Shown piece after piece: positions 10,101-35,700 of a stretch of 64,000 nucleotides of DNA. Numbering within the stretch: position 1 is the stretch's first letter; every line of letters starts with the position of its first letter. The DNA comes from Octopus sinensis. Taxonomy: Eukaryota. The position numbers were made by a program. The stretch is from NCBI RefSeq assembly GCF_006345805.1, contig NC_043011.1, forward strand, positions 53,952,464 through 54,016,463, in the 5' to 3' direction.

Positions 10101-13100
10101 CCACTGGTTGACATGTGACACGAGGGTCCCTACGTAGTCCGCGCCACTGGTTGACACGTGACGCGAATTGTCTCGACTTATTTCGCGCCATAATTGCGAA
10201 TCAGCCAATCAAGACCTTCGGTTAAAATTCCATTTTCTGGAGTTCGGTGAGCCAACCAAACAGTATATAAAGCAGGGTTCACAGACACTTATGTCTTGAG
10301 TTCCAGTTCTTCTAAGAACTAACTTAGGCCACCTGCTGCTCAACTTAGAGATATGCGATTGTCTCTGCTACTACCTGTTGCTACGCTAATCTATACAAAC
10401 ATTGAAAGCCTCTCGAGTAGATTCCAGCATCTTGCCCTATGAACAGTAAACTAAATGCCATTCTTAATTCTATGTTCAGTACCTTTGGGTATGCTTCACG
10501 CCACCCGAACACACAGACACAAAACATGCTAACGCTTACGAACTCTTAAAATCCACATGATTATAAAATATGTAAAATAAATAATATTTATCTACCAACA
10601 GAAGACTTGTGTCAATTCACTTATGTCCTATTATCGTTTGTATGTATTTTATGGCTTTGAATAATTCGTTAAGAGTAGAACCGCGTATTTCCTATACAAC
10701 CACATGTGATCCTTATCTCTTACAAGTGTAAGCTGTTGGTCTGTGTTGCCTTTGATAATGTCAAGATGAATGCAGTGAAATGTCTGGAGACATAAAGAAT
10801 TGGAGCAGCACTGTTTATCTTTTTTCTGAATGCCCTCATTGTGTAAAAAAAAAAAAAACAAGTCTGTCTTCTTTAATCTGAATGCCCCCATTGTGTAAAA
10901 AACAACAAACCAAGTCTGCTTCTTTAAGTCCGCTTTATATGTGTGTCTCTATAAATGTAATTGTCTCATTTAATAAAATTTCATTACAACGATCGTTTTG
11001 CCTTCGCAAGTCAGTAAGTGAAGCGCTTGACTCTTTGCTTTTTTATTCCCGGTGAATATTGATATTTTTTTACGGATTTCTATTATTTTAATATCTATAA
11101 TTTTATATAAACATGAGCAGTAAACAAGTACCTCATATTTCTCAGGAAGGATTTATGGAAAACCGAGTTGATTTTGTAGAACACATGGACAATATCGGAT
11201 AATTTTTAGATCATGCTTTATCCAATGGTTTATTGACTTTAGAACATAAAAATGAAATAAGGTCCAAAATAAATCCTGACGACCAAAGACGAGAGTTACA
11301 TGATTATATATATAGGAAACTTCCGAATGTTTCAGATAAATTGATATCAGCCTTGAAAAAGTCGAAACATTTAAAGATACTTGATCTTTTGATCAGACCA
11401 CACGGTGAGGATCTTTTCTAAACAATTTGAAACTTCGTATACTGGTAGAATGTGTCAAAAGAAAACATTAATTTCAACTAGATTGTTTGAGAAAATTGTA
11501 TTTTGTAACTTTTATGTAGTTTAATTCTTCAAAATTTAACCAATGAAATCCCAGCATTTAACTTAAATTCATTTGCTGAGTCTAAGTTAACAGCACACAC
11601 ATACACACGCACACAACAATAACACACACACACACACACACACAACAATAACACACACACACACAGGTACCCATGTTTATTTCAATGTCATCCCTGACTT
11701 ACGGAATGATTACCTGTGCGTGTGTGTTTTTGTTGTGTATGTGTGTGCGTGTGTGTTTTTGTTGTGTATGTGTGTGTTATTGTTGTGTACCTGTGTGTGT
11801 GTGTTATTGTTGTGTATGTGTGTGCGTGTGTGTTTTTGTTGTGTATGTGTGTGTTTTTGTTGTGTATGTGTGTGCGTGTGTGTTTTTGTTGTGTATGTGT
11901 GTGTGTTTGTTGTGTGTGTTATTGTTGTGTACCTGTGTGTGTGTGTTTTTTTTGTTGTGTATGTGTGCGTGTGTTATTGTTGTGTATGTGTGTGTGTGTG
12001 TGTGTTTGTTGTGTATGTGTGTGCGTGTGAAGTATGTAAGTGGTGCTTTAAAATCCCGGTCGTGTTGTATTAATATACAATGTGAAATTTACATGCAAAC
12101 ATACATATAAACATGCACACACCTACATACATACATACAAGCATTTCTTTTTGTTTTACCATTATAACTACAAAATGAAAAAATGGAAACGCAAATGTGT
12201 AACAGTTGTAAGGCATCGTATATTGACGTAATAAGACGGAAAAAAAGGGCGCTGACAAACGGGGGGGAGGGGGCTCGGAAAATTGCCTACGTGTGTGTCA
12301 AGTTTCATCAGAATCGGTTGAAAGCCGTGGTCAGGGTGAGGGTACAACCTGACAGACACACAGAAAAACTGCCGTTTATATATAGAGATTTTTAGAGAGT
12401 TACTTCCCTTATGCCAACAATGCGTTTAAATGGTGAAAATTGATGGTAAATTTTTCTTTAAATCGTAGGCAATTTTCCGAGCCCCCCCCCGTTTGTCAGC
12501 GCGCTTTTTTTTCGTCATATTCCTTCAATATACGATGCCTTACACCTCTTACACATACTTTTTTCCATTTTTGCCACCTGGGCGTGGATCCTCTACGGTT
12601 GATCCTGGGAATTTTCCGACCCCCCCCACACCACCCCCGTTCGTCAGCGCCCTTTTTTTCCGTCTTATTACGTCAATATACGATGCCTTACAACTGTTAC
12701 ACATTTGCGTTTCCATTTTTTCCACCGGGTGCGGATCTAGATATTAACCGAAATATATTTACAGTTTCACAATTATTAAAATTGAAAATTTCTCCGATAA
12801 TTTTATTTTTCTATCTTGTTTATTTATTCATTGATGAGTGATTGGCAGCAAATGCTTTTAATTACTTTCTCACCTTTACATAAGGGAGCGGATATGGGTA
12901 CGTAGTTTAAGCTCGTTTATTCAACCGTGCTTCTTGGCTCGAATACGTTTCACTCTACTGAACCTGGACTAGAGTCATTTATTATAGTTTCGTATTTATC
13001 AACCCCTCGTAAATGGAATTCTGTTATGAGAAACTATTTTACAGCTCATCGTAGTGAGTTTTTATAGTAGAATTCTAATTTAAGAACTTCATATAACTAC

Positions 13101-32700: not shown

Positions 32701-35700
32701 GGCTTTACTGAGGCGCAGTCATTCCATCTGGCTGCTGATAGAGTTCGGCGTGACAATATAATCAACTTTAGAACACGTCCTGGCCTATTATATAAACATG
32801 AGCAGTAAACAAGTACCTCATATTTCTCAGGAAGGATTTATGGAAAACCGAGTTGATTTTGTAGAACACATGGACAATATCGGATCATTTTTAGATCATG
32901 CTTTATCCAATGGTTTATTGACTTTAGAACATAAAAATGAAATAAGGTCCAAAAGAAATCCTGACGACCAAAGACGAGAGTTACATGATTATATATATAG
33001 GAAACTTCCGAATGTTTCAGATAAATTGATATCAGCCTTGAAAAAGTCGAAACATTTAAAGATACTTGATCTTTTGATCAGACCACACGGTGAGGATCTT
33101 TTCTAAACAATTTGAAACTTCGTATACTGGTAGAATGTGTCAAAAGAAAACATTAATTTCAACTAGATTGTTTGAGAAAATTGCATTTTGTAACTTTTAT
33201 GTAGTTTAATTCTTCAAAATTTAACCAATGAAATCCCAGCATTTAACTTAAATTCATTTGCTGAGTCTAAGTTAACAGCACACACATACACACGCACACA
33301 ACAATAACACACACACACACACACACACAACAATAACACACACACACACAGGTACCCATGTTTATTTCAATGTCATCCCTGACTTACGGAATGATTACCT
33401 GTGCGTGTGTGTTTTTGTTGTGTATGTGTGTGTGTTTGTTGTGTGTGTTATTGTTGTGTACCTGTGTGTGTGTGTTTTTTTTGTTGTGTATGTGTGCGTG
33501 TGTTATTGTTGTGTATGTGTGTGTGTGTGTGTGTTTGTTGTGTATGTGTGTGCGTGTGAAGTATGTAAGTGGTGCTTTAAAATCCCGGTCGTGTTGTATT
33601 AATATATAATGTGAAATTTACATGCAAACATACATATAAACATGCACACACCTACATACATACATACAAGCATTTCTTTTTGTTTTACCATTATAACTAC
33701 AAAATGAAAATAACGGTTGCTCAGGTGCACTACAACTCATCTAAAGTGTATATATAATCAGGTGTAGTTTCGGCGGATTTCGGAAAGTATGATGGCCTTA
33801 AAGGATGCAGTGTCATGGCAGTCAACAACTGACGCAGGCAGTTTATTCCATGCTTCAGCAACTCTGAGCGTGAAAAAATGTTTCCGAAAGTCATCGGAGC
33901 TGTGTTGTTTTCTGACTTTGTAGGCATGTCCACGTGTGTTAGACACATGGAGATCAAAAAGGTGTTCAGTGTTGTTATTGGTGAGGTGGTTGACAACTTT
34001 GTGGGTGTTTACCAAGTCCGTCGCCAGACGCCGGAGCTTCAGTGAATCCATGCCCAGGGAAACAAGGCGCTCAGAATATGGTAGGTGTCTGATGGAGGGT
34101 ATGCGTTTGGTTGCACGTCTCTGAACAGATTCCAGGAGGTCAATGTTCTGAGCAAGATAGGGGTTCCAAACTGATGATGCGAATTCCAAGTGTGGTCGTA
34201 CCATAGCTGTATACAGTTTTAAATAGATGGATGGAGAGCGGCTAACAAATATTAACCATTTCGGTTAATATATATATATTTCTTTACTACCCACAAGGGG
34301 CTATACACAGAGGGGACAAACAAGGACAGACAAAGGAATTAAGTCGATTACATCAACCCCAGTGCGTAACTGGTACTTAATTTATCGACCCCGAAAGGAT
34401 GAAAGGCAAAGTCGACCTCGGCGGAATTTGAACTCGGAACGTAACGACAGACAAAATACGGCAACGCATTTCGCCCGGCGTGCTAACGTTTCTGCCAGCT
34501 CACCGTAAATAAAAACTTGTAACTTTGACCTGACTCTAATTTGCGATTAAAGGTGTTGGGACAAATTATATACGAAGGGAGGTAATTCCATTGCTATATT
34601 TATCCACCTTTACATCGTCTTTCACTCAATTTCTTGTCTACAAAACCATTCTTGTCTACAAAACCATTTTAAATCTATGCTAAACTACGTAAGAAACTTT
34701 TTCGAAATTATAAACTCACAGACTAATATAATCACTGCATGATATAAATTTCTTAAACAATATTTTTAATATGTGTAGTAAGTTTGTTTCCCCAATTATG
34801 TGGTTCCGAGTTCAGTCCCACTGCGTGGCATTTTGGGCAAGTGTCTTCTACAATAGCCTTGGGCCGACCAAAGTTTCGTGAGTGGATTTGATAGATGGAA
34901 ACTGAAAGAAGCCCGTACATTCACACACACATGTATGTATGTATGCATGCATGCATGCATACATACATACATACATGCATGCATGCATTCATTCATACAT
35001 ACATACATACATACATACATCTACTTGTGTGTCTGTCTCCGACCACCGCTTAACAACTGGTGTTTGTGTGTAAGGTAGCGGTTCGGCAAAAGAAATCGAC
35101 AGAATAAGTACCAGGTAGAAAAAAAATAAAGAAAGAAGTACAGGGGTTGGTCCGTTCATCTAAAAAATTCTTGAAAGCGGTGCCCCAGAATGGCCTCAGT
35201 CTCACGACTGAAACAAGTAAGAGATTAAAGAACATAGGCAGCAGGTCAGAAATTTGGTAGGAGTAGGATTGAATCGGCTGCAGTCCTTAATTAGTATTTC
35301 ATTTTATCAACCCTATAGGGATGTAAGGCAAAGTTGACCTCAGCTAGACAAGAATTCAGATCGTTAAGATTTGGAGCAAACCCCGCAAAGCTATTTACCG
35401 ACGTTTTAACAAATCCGCCACCACAATAACTGAAAACATTAAAAAAAAAAGAAGTTTAGACTAATTCATGCCCACCAACGGTAGGGCCGTTAAATGTAGA
35501 CCGACTTAGTAGGAATGATAGCTAATTTCCTGCTAAATACTCCATAATGTCTTTATAAAGAAATGGACAGATTAAATAATATAGTTCTAGATACACTTTA
35601 CCAGAAAGAAAAAGATTAAAACTATATGATGATTACAGCTGGAGTATCTTTAATCGTAGGTTTACTCGATCAAAGCTGACATGGAAATAAACATCATGGA

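What the first reader, a model, noticed from the sequence alone, without database searches (positions are those of the whole stretch)
11103..33710. Recently duplicated CARD-domain exon adjoining Helitron ends: one intact, one with a stop
Seen: 11103-12181 and 32788-33710 are near-identical (2 differences in the 309-bp ORF, plus microsatellite length). Upstream flanks are unrelated and homology begins 10 bp before the ATG. Splice sites bracket the domain. In copy 1 the block runs straight into Helitron sequence whose 5' TC end is at ~12388; copy 2 is cut at the same point by a CR1. Known: Helitrons capture and spread host exons; CARD-only proteins can act as caspase or inflammasome decoys. Inference: a mobile death-fold module that could yield a 102-aa CARD-only protein or be spliced into other transcripts.
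Basis: partly seen in the sequence, partly recalled or inferred. Interest (0 to 1): 0.72.

Follow-up and report, generated by a model that had tools for sequence, protein, structure and literature searches.

The report
Duplicated relic of an octopus caspase gene
Two nearly identical 1-kb pieces of the front end of an octopus-type caspase gene lie 22 kb apart among transposons, one already carrying a stop codon; they look like ordinary gene debris, not a proven mobile module.

Summary
Blocks 11103-12181 and 32788-33710 differ at 4 of 923 aligned bases plus one 156-nt minisatellite indel. Copy 2 has an intact 102-codon ORF. Copy 1 has TCA>TAA at codon 30 and R52I.

The ORF is a real CARD: Pfam E 1.6e-10, and the model matches the Apaf-1 CARD at TM 0.74-0.82. 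Its nearest named relatives are Octopus CARD-caspases, at most 67% identical.

The block is not a clean exon. After a ~495-nt spacer with no AG acceptor, the coding line resumes for 11 codons of the protease domain (GRVVLIYNVKF) and then stops. No other caspase piece lies in the 64 kb. It is a truncated 5' gene fragment.

The Helitron-like neighbour of copy 1 is real, but it is cut short at its 3' end and is absent at copy 2. A LINE-like 3' end abuts copy 2, and a 97% identical piece of the same family lies 1.35 kb beyond copy 1.

The block ends carry no Helitron termini and no target duplications. The copies are 21.7 kb apart in the same orientation. I read this as a recent local DNA-level duplication of a caspase gene relic. 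Helitron capture and a working CARD-only protein are not excluded, because neither could be tested here.

The parts
32788..33710 (+). Copy 2 of the duplicated block (923 nt)
   Evidence: 99.57% identical to 11103-12181 outside one 156-nt indel
32798..33106 (+). Intact 102-codon ORF (P0001). The CARD spans residues 16-84, which is 32843-33049
   Evidence: Translation. Pfam CARD PF00619, 41.3 bits against a cut-off of 23.9, E 1.6e-10. AlphaFold model pLDDT 84.9 with helices at 11-16, 18-24, 28-37, 43-50, 55-69, 74-83 and 87-94. Foldseek top hits are all CARDs; Apaf-1 CARD 1cy5 gives TM 0.74/0.82, rmsd 1.5 A
33092..33586 (+). ~495-nt non-coding spacer between the two coding pieces, containing a (CA)n...(TG)n inverted minisatellite. 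It is flanked by CGGT on both sides (33088-33091 and 33586-33589). It starts GTGAGG if read from 33090 and has no AG at its end
   Evidence: Sequence; inverted repeats; tblastn alignments that both contain the Gly codon
33587..33619 (+). Remnant of the start of the caspase (p20) domain, GRVVLIYNVKF. Coding similarity ends here
   Evidence: tblastn against P0004, P0005 and P0022 residues 93-103, 9 of 11 identical. The match is weak on its own (E 0.17-1.1) but is colinear and in register with the end of the CARD match
11103..12181 (+). Copy 1 of the duplicated block (1079 nt, including 156 extra nt of minisatellite at 11715-11870)
11113..11421 (+). Copy 1 ORF remnant. It has TAA at codon 30 (11200-11202) and R52I (11270). 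Both changes are derived, because S30 and R52 are kept in copy 2 and in P0022
12058..12090 (+). Copy 1 remnant of the caspase-domain start. Its one difference from copy 2 (12078 C/T) is synonymous (TAC/TAT)
12177..12388 (-). Helitron-like unit abutting copy 1. The 5' TC end is at 12388. Part A is 12388-12287 and part B' is 12287-12177. It is truncated about 20 nt before the family's palindrome and CTAG. The junction with the block is a 5-nt overlap, GAAAA, at 12177-12181
   Evidence: blastn to 5983-6096 (93%) and to 12464-12572 / 12610-12722 (86-92%); three-way alignment
12389..12740 (+). Further Helitron-like debris: two tandem B units in the opposite orientation. The second ends in CCACCGGGTGCGGATCTAG at 12740
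5983..6354 (+). Complete short non-autonomous Helitron-like element, used as the family reference. It starts TCTCTCTCTATATAAACGG and ends GCCGGGCGATACTGCTAG, with host A before it and T after it
   Evidence: The hairpin is only 4 bp and no more stable than shuffles (z -0.28)
33709..34264 (-). LINE-like element whose 3' end abuts copy 2. DNA similarity to a third copy runs to 33973. An open frame of 168 codons runs to 34264, where a SINE-like repeat begins
   Evidence: No Pfam match for the ORF
13496..13673 (-). 5'-truncated piece of the same LINE family, 1.35 kb right of copy 1, with an (AAT)n tail. It is 97% identical to 33718-33873 (4 differences in 139 nt plus a 15-16-nt indel)
21493..21873 (-). 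Third, older copy of the same LINE 3' end (82-86% identical) with the same (AAT)n tail. It was used to define the element's 3' terminus

Best explanation
The two blocks are young paralogous copies of a dead-end 5' fragment of a cephalopod CARD-caspase gene. Each holds 10 nt of leader, the whole CARD prodomain, a ~0.5-kb non-coding spacer, and only the first 11 codons of the protease domain. The rest of the gene is absent from the 64-kb window.

The fragment was copied once, recently, by a local DNA-level event within about 22 kb of the same chromosome, in the same orientation. The likely mechanisms are template switching or ectopic break repair in repeat-rich DNA. The Helitron-like and LINE-like repeats at its right end mark breakpoints or later insertions and are not the vehicle.

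Copy 1 has since been killed by a nonsense mutation. Copy 2 keeps an open 102-codon frame probably because it is young, and it is most likely not a working gene.

SHOWN: the duplication, the CARD, the caspase remnant, the truncation, and the anatomy of the repeats.
INFERRED: the local non-transposon copying mechanism and the lack of function.
For: (1) The block differs at 4 of 923 positions, and the flanks on the left are unrelated.
(2) Both polarisable ORF changes are on copy 1.
(3) CARD plus the colinear GRVVLIYNVKF piece match Octopus CARD-caspases of 290-370 aa. No further caspase match with E<1 occurs in the window among 21 proteins (20 after excluding the query itself), nor for P0022 at E<50 apart from chance-level hits.
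(4) No AG precedes 33587, so the two coding pieces cannot be joined by canonical splicing.
(5) Only 10 nt upstream of the ATG are shared. No AATAAA or ATTAAA follows the stop in copy 2.
(6) The block ends show no target-site duplication, the left end has no CTRR or hairpin by eye, and the pattern search found no family 3' end on the minus strand anywhere in the window.
(7) Copy 2 has no Helitron sequence.
(8) The family is prone to local duplication. Of 27 hits, 22 are named Octopus paralogues or isoforms, and nearly all share one contig length per species. One O. vulgaris model has three tandem CARD N-terminal repeats.
(9) The two copies are 21.7 kb apart in the same orientation. This is unlikely for genome-wide transposition unless copy number is very high. 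No near-identical CARD protein is in the protein collection.
Against: (1) The right end of the block is the same nucleotide in both copies, yet it abuts two different repeats. A simple local copy does not explain this.
(2) At copy 1 the block lies downstream of a Helitron unit that has lost its terminator, in the orientation that read-through capture needs, with 5-nt microhomology.
(3) The CARD is not decayed. Its Pfam score of 41.3 bits exceeds those of full-length relatives P0003 (22.2), P0004 (30.0) and P0005 (20.0). It keeps all 4 invariant columns of an 11-sequence alignment. It is only 60-67% identical to any annotated Octopus paralogue. So its lineage was under constraint until recently, or still is.
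(4) Copy number in the source genome, expression and read depth were not testable.
Confidence: 0.55

Rival explanations
1. Helitron read-through capture. A short non-autonomous Helitron that lost its 3' palindrome and CTAG became fused to the caspase fragment. Rolling-circle transposition ran on into the fragment and copied Helitron plus fragment to the second site. There, a later LINE insertion at the A-run of the junction deleted the Helitron part.
For: The unit at 12388-12177 has the family's 5' TC end. It lacks only the last ~20 nt and is oriented so that the block lies 3' of it. The junction has 5-nt microhomology. Family members with full Helitron1-type ends exist in the window: 5983-6354, and a CTAG end at 12740. 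Helitrons are reported as recently active in Octopus vulgaris, with 8 families and 178 insertions (PMC13282606, passages read). They cover 1.02% of that genome (its supplement). The end-bypass capture model is described in the background section of PMC5148889 (passages read). The junction run GAAAAAA is one of only three runs of 5 or more A in the block (11248, 11356, 12178). It would be a plausible LINE priming site.
Against: Copy 2 carries no Helitron sequence, so an extra deletion must be assumed. The left end of the block has no CTRR, hairpin or family 3' end. The base after it on the element strand is A in copy 1, not T. Only 2 copies are seen, 21.7 kb apart. A test of whether the last 87-142 nt of the block are Helitron-derived failed: 204 of 500 and 103 of 500 shuffles scored as well. 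No Rep/helicase ORF lies in the window among 75 frames of at least 110 codons (by eye; 12 of them were scanned with Pfam).
Confidence: 0.22
2. Copy 2 is a working CARD-only gene. It would be a small decoy that binds the CARD of its parent caspase or of an adaptor and damps activation. This would parallel the primate CARD-only proteins, which arose by duplication next to caspase-1.
For: The ORF is intact at 102 codons, with a well-scoring CARD, a confident six-helix model and all conserved columns kept. It ends 4 codons after the break in the gene, as a truncated decoy would. Primate COP, INCA and ICEBERG are described as caspase-1-like CARDs lying next to caspase-1 that arose by duplication (PMC3775265, passages read).
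Against: Only 10 nt of upstream sequence came with the copy, so no parental promoter is present. No canonical poly(A) signal lies in the 600 nt after the stop. The sister copy already has a stop. With 0.43% divergence an open frame is expected by chance. No CARD-only protein of 56-179 aa sharing words with it is in the protein collection. No caspase gene lies in the 64-kb window.
Confidence: 0.1
3. LINE-mediated copying. Either the block was carried as 3' flanking sequence of the LINE-like element (read-through transcript, reverse transcribed), or LINE reverse transcriptase primed on a broken DNA end carrying the block.
For: On the minus strand the block lies directly 3' of the LINE 3' end in copy 2. 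A 97% identical LINE piece lies on the same side and strand of copy 1.
Against: 1.3 kb of other sequence separates the LINE from the block at copy 1. Each LINE piece has element sequence that the other lacks: the (AAT)n tail and TTGTGTAC in copy 1, and at least 100 nt of extra 5' body in copy 2. So neither is a copy of the other. The LINE pieces are more diverged than the block: 4/139 against 4/923, Poisson P 0.003, Fisher p 0.013 (taking 920 aligned positions in the test). There is no tail or target duplication at the far end of the block.
Confidence: 0.06
4. Assembly artefact: a mis-joined or uncollapsed allele placed twice in one contig.
For: Near-identity. A perfect 216-nt palindrome elsewhere in the window (29249-29688) shows that odd structures are present.
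Against: The flanks of the two copies are unrelated on the left and differ on the right. The copies differ by a nonsense change, 3 other substitutions and a 156-nt indel. There is no N in the window.
Confidence: 0.03

Closest known systems
Octopus CARD-caspases (RefSeq names 'caspase-3-like', 'caspase-7-like' and 'caspase-8-like' of O. sinensis, O. vulgaris and O. bimaculoides; e.g. P0022, 307 aa)
   Same: The CARD prodomain is homologous from the first Met. It is 67% identical to P0022 over residues 15-98 and 63% to P0032 over residues 1-98. The same PHG-RV(I/V)LI-NVKF transition into the protease domain is present.
   Different: Everything after the 11th residue of the protease domain is missing. 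A 9-residue in-frame gap (DDPSVYPMK) precedes PHG. A ~495-nt spacer splits the coding line. No annotated paralogue is closer than 67%. Whether the family is 'caspase-2' or 'caspase-Y' in the sense of PMC11463336 (passages read) was not tested.
Primate CARD-only proteins COP/CARD16, INCA/CARD17 and ICEBERG/CARD18
   Same: A short ORF consisting of a caspase-type CARD, produced by partial duplication of a CARD-caspase (PMC3775265, passages read).
   Different: Those lie beside caspase-1, are expressed and have a shown decoy function. Here no parent gene is in the window, no promoter came along, expression is unknown, and the sister copy is already dead.
Helitron gene-fragment capture (end-bypass / read-through; best known from maize and bats, which is recalled from memory; the model is described in PMC5148889, passages read)
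   Same: A gene fragment lies 3' of a Helitron unit that lacks its terminator, in the required orientation.
   Different: No second terminus is present, the second copy has no Helitron, and there is no family of copies. The defining test, several copies sharing both ends, could not be run.
Ordinary truncated duplicate pseudogenes in tandem gene-family clusters
   Same: A partial gene copy with a sharp breakpoint, recent origin, one copy with a nonsense mutation, and a family with many local paralogues.
   Different: No intact family member lies within the 64-kb window. The breakpoint coincides with repeat junctions in both copies.

Membership tests
CARD (Pfam PF00619, death-fold) | Sequence match to the family profile above the curated cut-off | tested here: met
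   41.3 bits against a cut-off of 23.9, E 1.6e-10, residues 16-84 matching profile positions 6-74 of 85
CARD (Pfam PF00619, death-fold) | Six-helix bundle superposable on solved CARDs | tested here: met
   Model built with an 11-sequence alignment: pLDDT 84.9, pTM 0.75. The top 50 listed PDB hits are CARDs plus CARD-based designs. 1cy5 gives TM 0.74/0.82, rmsd 1.5 A over 83 columns. Foldseek E-values are only 0.026 and higher, with probability 1.00. The single-sequence model was poor (pLDDT 60.9) and its hits were weak.
CARD-caspase (CARD + Peptidase_C14) | A caspase p20/p10 domain following the CARD | tested here: not met
   Only 11 residues of the domain start remain. No other caspase match occurs in the window. 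Relatives P0002-P0005 have Peptidase_C14.
Helitron (Helitron1 type) | 5'-TC terminus | tested here: met
   TCTCTATATATAAACGG at 12388 (minus strand). The same end occurs at 5983 (+) and about 58724 (-).
Helitron (Helitron1 type) | 3'-CTRR terminus with a hairpin 10-12 nt upstream (definition as in PMC5148889) | tested here: not met
   These are absent from the unit that touches the block: B' stops about 20 nt short. They are present in relatives: 6327-6354 has CCCG..CGGG followed by 12 nt ending in CTAG, and 12722-12740 ends in CTAG. The hairpins are 3-4 bp and no more stable than shuffles.
Helitron (Helitron1 type) | Insertion between host A and T, with no target duplication and no terminal inverted repeats | tested here: met
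   This holds for the complete element 5983-6354 (flanks ...gagtA | element | Ttataac). At 12388 the preceding base on the element strand is A.
Helitron (Helitron1 type) | Rep/helicase protein (autonomous members) | tested here: not met
   None was recognised among 75 frames of at least 110 codons. Twelve of these 75 were scanned with Pfam and none hit Rep or helicase. The elements here are short non-autonomous forms.
Helitron-captured gene fragment | Fragment lies between a Helitron 5' and 3' terminus, and several copies share both termini | tested here: not met
   No 3' terminus occurs at or left of 11103 / 32788. One of the 2 copies has a Helitron neighbour. A genome-wide copy survey was not testable with these tools.
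CARD-only regulatory proteins | The ORF encodes a CARD and little else | tested here: met
   Copy 2 encodes 102 aa, with the CARD at residues 16-84. Copy 1 does not, because of the stop at codon 30.
CARD-only regulatory proteins | Expressed, and binds a caspase or adaptor CARD | not testable with these tools
   No transcript data are available. No complex prediction was run, because no parent protein of the same genome is in hand.
CR1-clade LINE | Reverse transcriptase / endonuclease ORF2 of the CR1 clade | tested here: inconclusive
   The 168-codon frame 33758-34264 (minus strand) has no Pfam match at E<=0.01. Atlas neighbours are unnamed eukaryotic clusters, score 0.95. LINE-like traits were seen: 3 copies share one 3' end, 2 of the 3 have (AAT)n tails, and their 5' ends differ.

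The most novel reading that the evidence does not exclude
A cephalopod has made a CARD-only decoy from a member of its expanded CARD-caspase family. This would be the same route by which primates made COP, INCA and ICEBERG from caspase-1. Here the CARD was cut free and copied by a terminator-less Helitron, so a death-fold regulator would be riding on a rolling-circle transposon.
Probability: 0.06. Interest if true: 0.75.

Novelty: new member of a known kind. Interest (0 to 1): 0.3.

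Why it matters
As it stands, this is a routine by-product of gene-family turnover in a repeat-rich cephalopod genome. It is useful mainly for annotation, because the 102-codon ORF should not be called a gene without transcript support.

It would matter in two cases. If copy 2 is expressed, it would be an invertebrate parallel to the primate CARD-only inflammasome decoys, arising in a lineage with a private expansion of CARD-caspases. If more copies share the Helitron junction, it would be a clean animal example of domain capture by a Helitron that lost its terminator.

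Tried and rejected
(1) Co-duplication of the LINE piece with the block. I first took 13533-13673 ~ 33718-33873 as proof that the duplicated unit ran past the Helitron. I rejected this as the main reading for three reasons.
- The LINE pieces are more diverged than the block (Poisson P 0.003).
- Each holds element sequence the other lacks.
- A 1.35-kb deletion in copy 2 would need both breakpoints to fall on repeat boundaries.

(2) The last 87-142 nt of the block as Helitron-derived. Smith-Waterman against 6097-6354 scored no better than shuffles: 204 of 500 and 103 of 500 shuffles scored as well.

(3) The ~495-nt spacer as a transposon insertion with a CGGT target duplication, versus a decayed intron with a 1-nt loss in the acceptor. 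The sequence fits both. The termini show only a weak inverted match (by eye). No other copy of the spacer lies in the window. This is left open.

(4) Target-site duplications at the block ends. None was found by eye.

(5) The rest of the Helitron 3' end to the left of copy 1. Only a 7-nt CCCGGTG match lies about 50 nt away, and I judged it to be chance.

(6) tRNA or SINE identity of the left flank of copy 2. ARAGORN and Rfam found nothing there.

(7) Intron positions from the O. vulgaris model P0023. These were not usable, because the repeat could reflect a cryptic donor inside the exon.

(9) The single-sequence structure model was too poor to use.

(10) No complex prediction was run.

(11) The two coding pieces were searched separately only. 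The joined CARD-plus-11-codon reading was neither assembled nor searched.

Full report
WHAT IS THERE

The window has no N. It is AT-rich (GC 0.23-0.46 in 2-kb steps) and crowded with repeats:
- microsatellites and SINE-like families with 6-10 copies;
- a Penelope-like RT plus GIY-YIG frame set;
- a gypsy-like RT-RNaseH frame;
- LINE-like tails.

A global alignment of 11103-12181 with 32788-33710 gives 923 aligned pairs with 4 differences (99.57%). It also shows one 156-nt indel inside a TG-rich minisatellite. Homology starts 10 nt before the ATG. To the left of that point the flanks share nothing beyond one 18-nt chance match.

THE CODING CONTENT

Copy 2 (32798-33106) reads as 102 codons without a stop. 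Copy 1 has TAA at codon 30 and Ile for Arg at codon 52. Both changes are derived in copy 1, because Ser30 and Arg52 are kept in the nearest named relative.

The protein is a CARD:
- Pfam PF00619 scores 41.3 bits against a cut-off of 23.9.
- A model built on an 11-sequence alignment has pLDDT 84.9.
- That model superposes on the Apaf-1 CARD at TM 0.74/0.82 and rmsd 1.5 A. The listed PDB hits are CARDs or CARD-based designs.
- The single-sequence model was poor.

WHICH GENE IT COMES FROM

An exhaustive profile-free search found 20 representatives at E<=0.001. The four closest were P0002-P0005, 40-53% identical, and all are CARD plus Peptidase_C14.

The word-indexed search for longer proteins gave one hit, 'caspase-3-like [Octopus sinensis]' (P0022, 307 aa). 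It is 67% identical over residues 15-98.

Searching with P0022 gave 27 hits at E<=1e-10. Twenty-two are named Octopus caspase-like proteins: 6 from O. sinensis, 10 from O. vulgaris and 6 from O. bimaculoides, some of them isoforms. Nearly all share one contig length per species, which suggests a cluster on one chromosome, although positions were not seen. None is more than 67% identical to the window's CARD.

So the source is probably an octopod, inferred from best hits only. The fragment belongs to a lineage-specific CARD-caspase expansion. Lophotrochozoan CARD-caspases are divided into caspase-2 and caspase-Y in PMC11463336 (passages read). I did not test which of the two this is.

NOT AN EXON BUT A TRUNCATED GENE FRONT

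HISQEGF here corresponds to YISKDQF and NISQQQF in relatives.

At the other end the match to the relatives stops at ...IRPHG (33091). It resumes 495 nt later at 33587 with GRVVLIYNVKF, which matches GRVILINNVKF of P0022 at 9 of 11 residues. This is the start of the protease domain. On its own that piece is weak (E 0.17-1.1), but it is colinear and in register.

The Gly codon GGT, within CGGT, is present on both sides of the spacer, and the spacer does not end in AG. It is therefore either an insertion with a 4-nt duplication or an intron whose acceptor has lost one base. I could not decide between these.

After VKF the similarity ends in CATA-rich sequence. No other caspase piece exists in the 64 kb. 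I searched the two coding pieces separately and left the joined reading out.

THE REPEATS AT THE RIGHT END

Copy 1 runs, through a 5-nt overlap GAAAA, into a 212-nt unit on the minus strand (12388-12177).
- Its 5' part matches 5983-6096 at 93%.
- Its 3' part matches two tandem units at 12464-12740 at 86-92%.

The element at 5983-6354 has the canonical Helitron1 features as defined in PMC5148889 (passages read). It starts with TC and ends with CTAG, has a short palindrome 12 nt before the end, and lies between A and T. The palindrome is only 4 bp and no more stable than shuffles.

The unit touching the block lacks the last ~20 nt, which hold the palindrome and CTAG. The geometry, a terminator-less Helitron with the fragment downstream, is what read-through capture needs.

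Against that reading:
- Copy 2 has no Helitron sequence.
- The left end of the block has no CTRR, hairpin or family 3' end.
- A test of whether the block's own last 87-142 nt are Helitron-derived failed.

THE LINE

Copy 2 is abutted at 33709-33717 by the 3' end of a minus-strand element. That element has a 168-codon frame (33758-34264) with no Pfam match. Its CR1 identity is therefore unverified.

That piece is 97% identical to the copy 2 element, and it carries an (AAT)n tail like a third, older copy at 21493-21873.

I first took this as proof that the duplication extended beyond the Helitron. Three things speak against that:
- The LINE pieces differ at 4 of 139 positions plus a 15-16-nt indel, against 4 of 923 for the block (Poisson P 0.003, Fisher p 0.013).
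- Copy 1's piece has the tail and TTGTGTAC that copy 2's lacks, while copy 2's has at least 100 nt more 5' body.
- A deletion in copy 2 would need both breakpoints to fall on repeat boundaries.

Independent insertions of a young family are more likely. CR1 and Helitron elements are both reported as recently active in O. vulgaris, with 787 and 178 insertions respectively (PMC13282606, passages read; summary table of its supplement).

It remains unexplained why both copies end at the same nucleotide against different repeats. The junction forms a run of A, GAAAAAA. This is one of only three runs of 5 or more A in the block. It could be a favoured LINE priming site, with loss of the sequence beyond.

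MOST LIKELY HISTORY AND FUNCTION

A CARD-caspase paralogue was truncated just inside its protease domain. The remaining fragment of about 0.9 kb was copied once, recently, to a site 21.7 kb away in the same orientation.

Several points make a local DNA-level copy (template switch or ectopic repair) the best-supported route:
- the short distance between the copies;
- the lack of element termini and target duplications;
- the absence of near-identical proteins in the collection;
- the family's record of local duplication, including an O. vulgaris model with three tandem CARD N-terminal repeats.

Helitron read-through is the main rival. For function, the default is none:
- Only 10 nt of leader came along.
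- No poly(A) signal follows the stop.
- The sister copy is dead.
- At 0.43% divergence an open frame is expected anyway.

One counter-argument stands. The CARD is well preserved and scores higher than some full-length relatives, although it is 33% or more diverged from every annotated paralogue. The truncation is therefore recent, or the CARD is still under constraint. That keeps open a CARD-only decoy like primate COP, INCA and ICEBERG (PMC3775265, passages read).

WHAT STAYED UNCHECKED

- Copy number, the parent gene, Helitron association genome-wide, transcripts, read depth and dN/dS against a parent. No eukaryotic genome or read collection was on hand.
The bacterial/archaeal genome collection was not used because it cannot bear on this.
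- Nothing in the window was taken for human.

VERDICT

This is a real and recent duplication of a real CARD. It is best read as a duplicated relic of a caspase gene in transposon-rich octopod DNA. The mobile-module reading is not supported by what can be seen here, but it is not excluded.

Noticed in passing
window 29249-29464 / 29473-29688: A perfect 216-nt inverted repeat (100% complementary) with an 8-nt spacer. It is either a foldback element or an assembly artefact.
   Followed up: no
window 54420-55473 and 55464-55650 / 56583-56769: A tandem array of a 26-nt unit, with units about 93-94% alike, gives long open frames by repetition. It lies next to a pair of 187-nt inverted repeats that are 94% complementary.
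   Followed up: no
window 37601-42862: A Penelope-like retroelement. It comprises a 385-codon frame, then eight copies of a 159-nt tandem repeat (38959-40524), then frames with a weak RVT_1 match and a GIY-YIG match at E 4.2e-07.
   Followed up: partly
window 60043-60137 and 60414-61019: A tRNA-like sequence (Rfam tRNA 52.9 bits; ARAGORN gives an odd anticodon) lies 280 nt upstream of a gypsy-like RT_RNaseH frame.
   Followed up: no
P0023 (Octopus vulgaris 'caspase-8-like', 472 aa): This gene model carries three tandem copies of the first 64-71 residues of the CARD. Repeated duplication of the CARD-coding front end therefore occurs elsewhere in this caspase family.
   Followed up: partly
window 5983-6354; 58381-58398; 58684-58727: There is a complete 372-nt Helitron-like element, and two further ends of the family lie near 58.4-58.7 kb. 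One is a CTAG 3' end on the plus strand and the other a TC 5' end on the minus strand.
   Followed up: partly
window 1-1800 and 19494-19990: Long imperfect trinucleotide arrays, CCA/ACC-rich and GTA-rich, give open frames of 150-340 codons in several frames. These are low-complexity sequence, not genes.
   Followed up: no
window 7419-7697, 27270-27548, 29830-30108, 36455-36733, 47755-48033, 53717-53995, 62606-62884: A SINE-like family of about 280 nt has at least 7 direct copies (71-89% identical) plus several inverted ones. It is the commonest dispersed repeat in the window.
   Followed up: no
window 11268: The G>T change that gives R52I in copy 1 also creates the only AATAAA in either block.
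   Followed up: no
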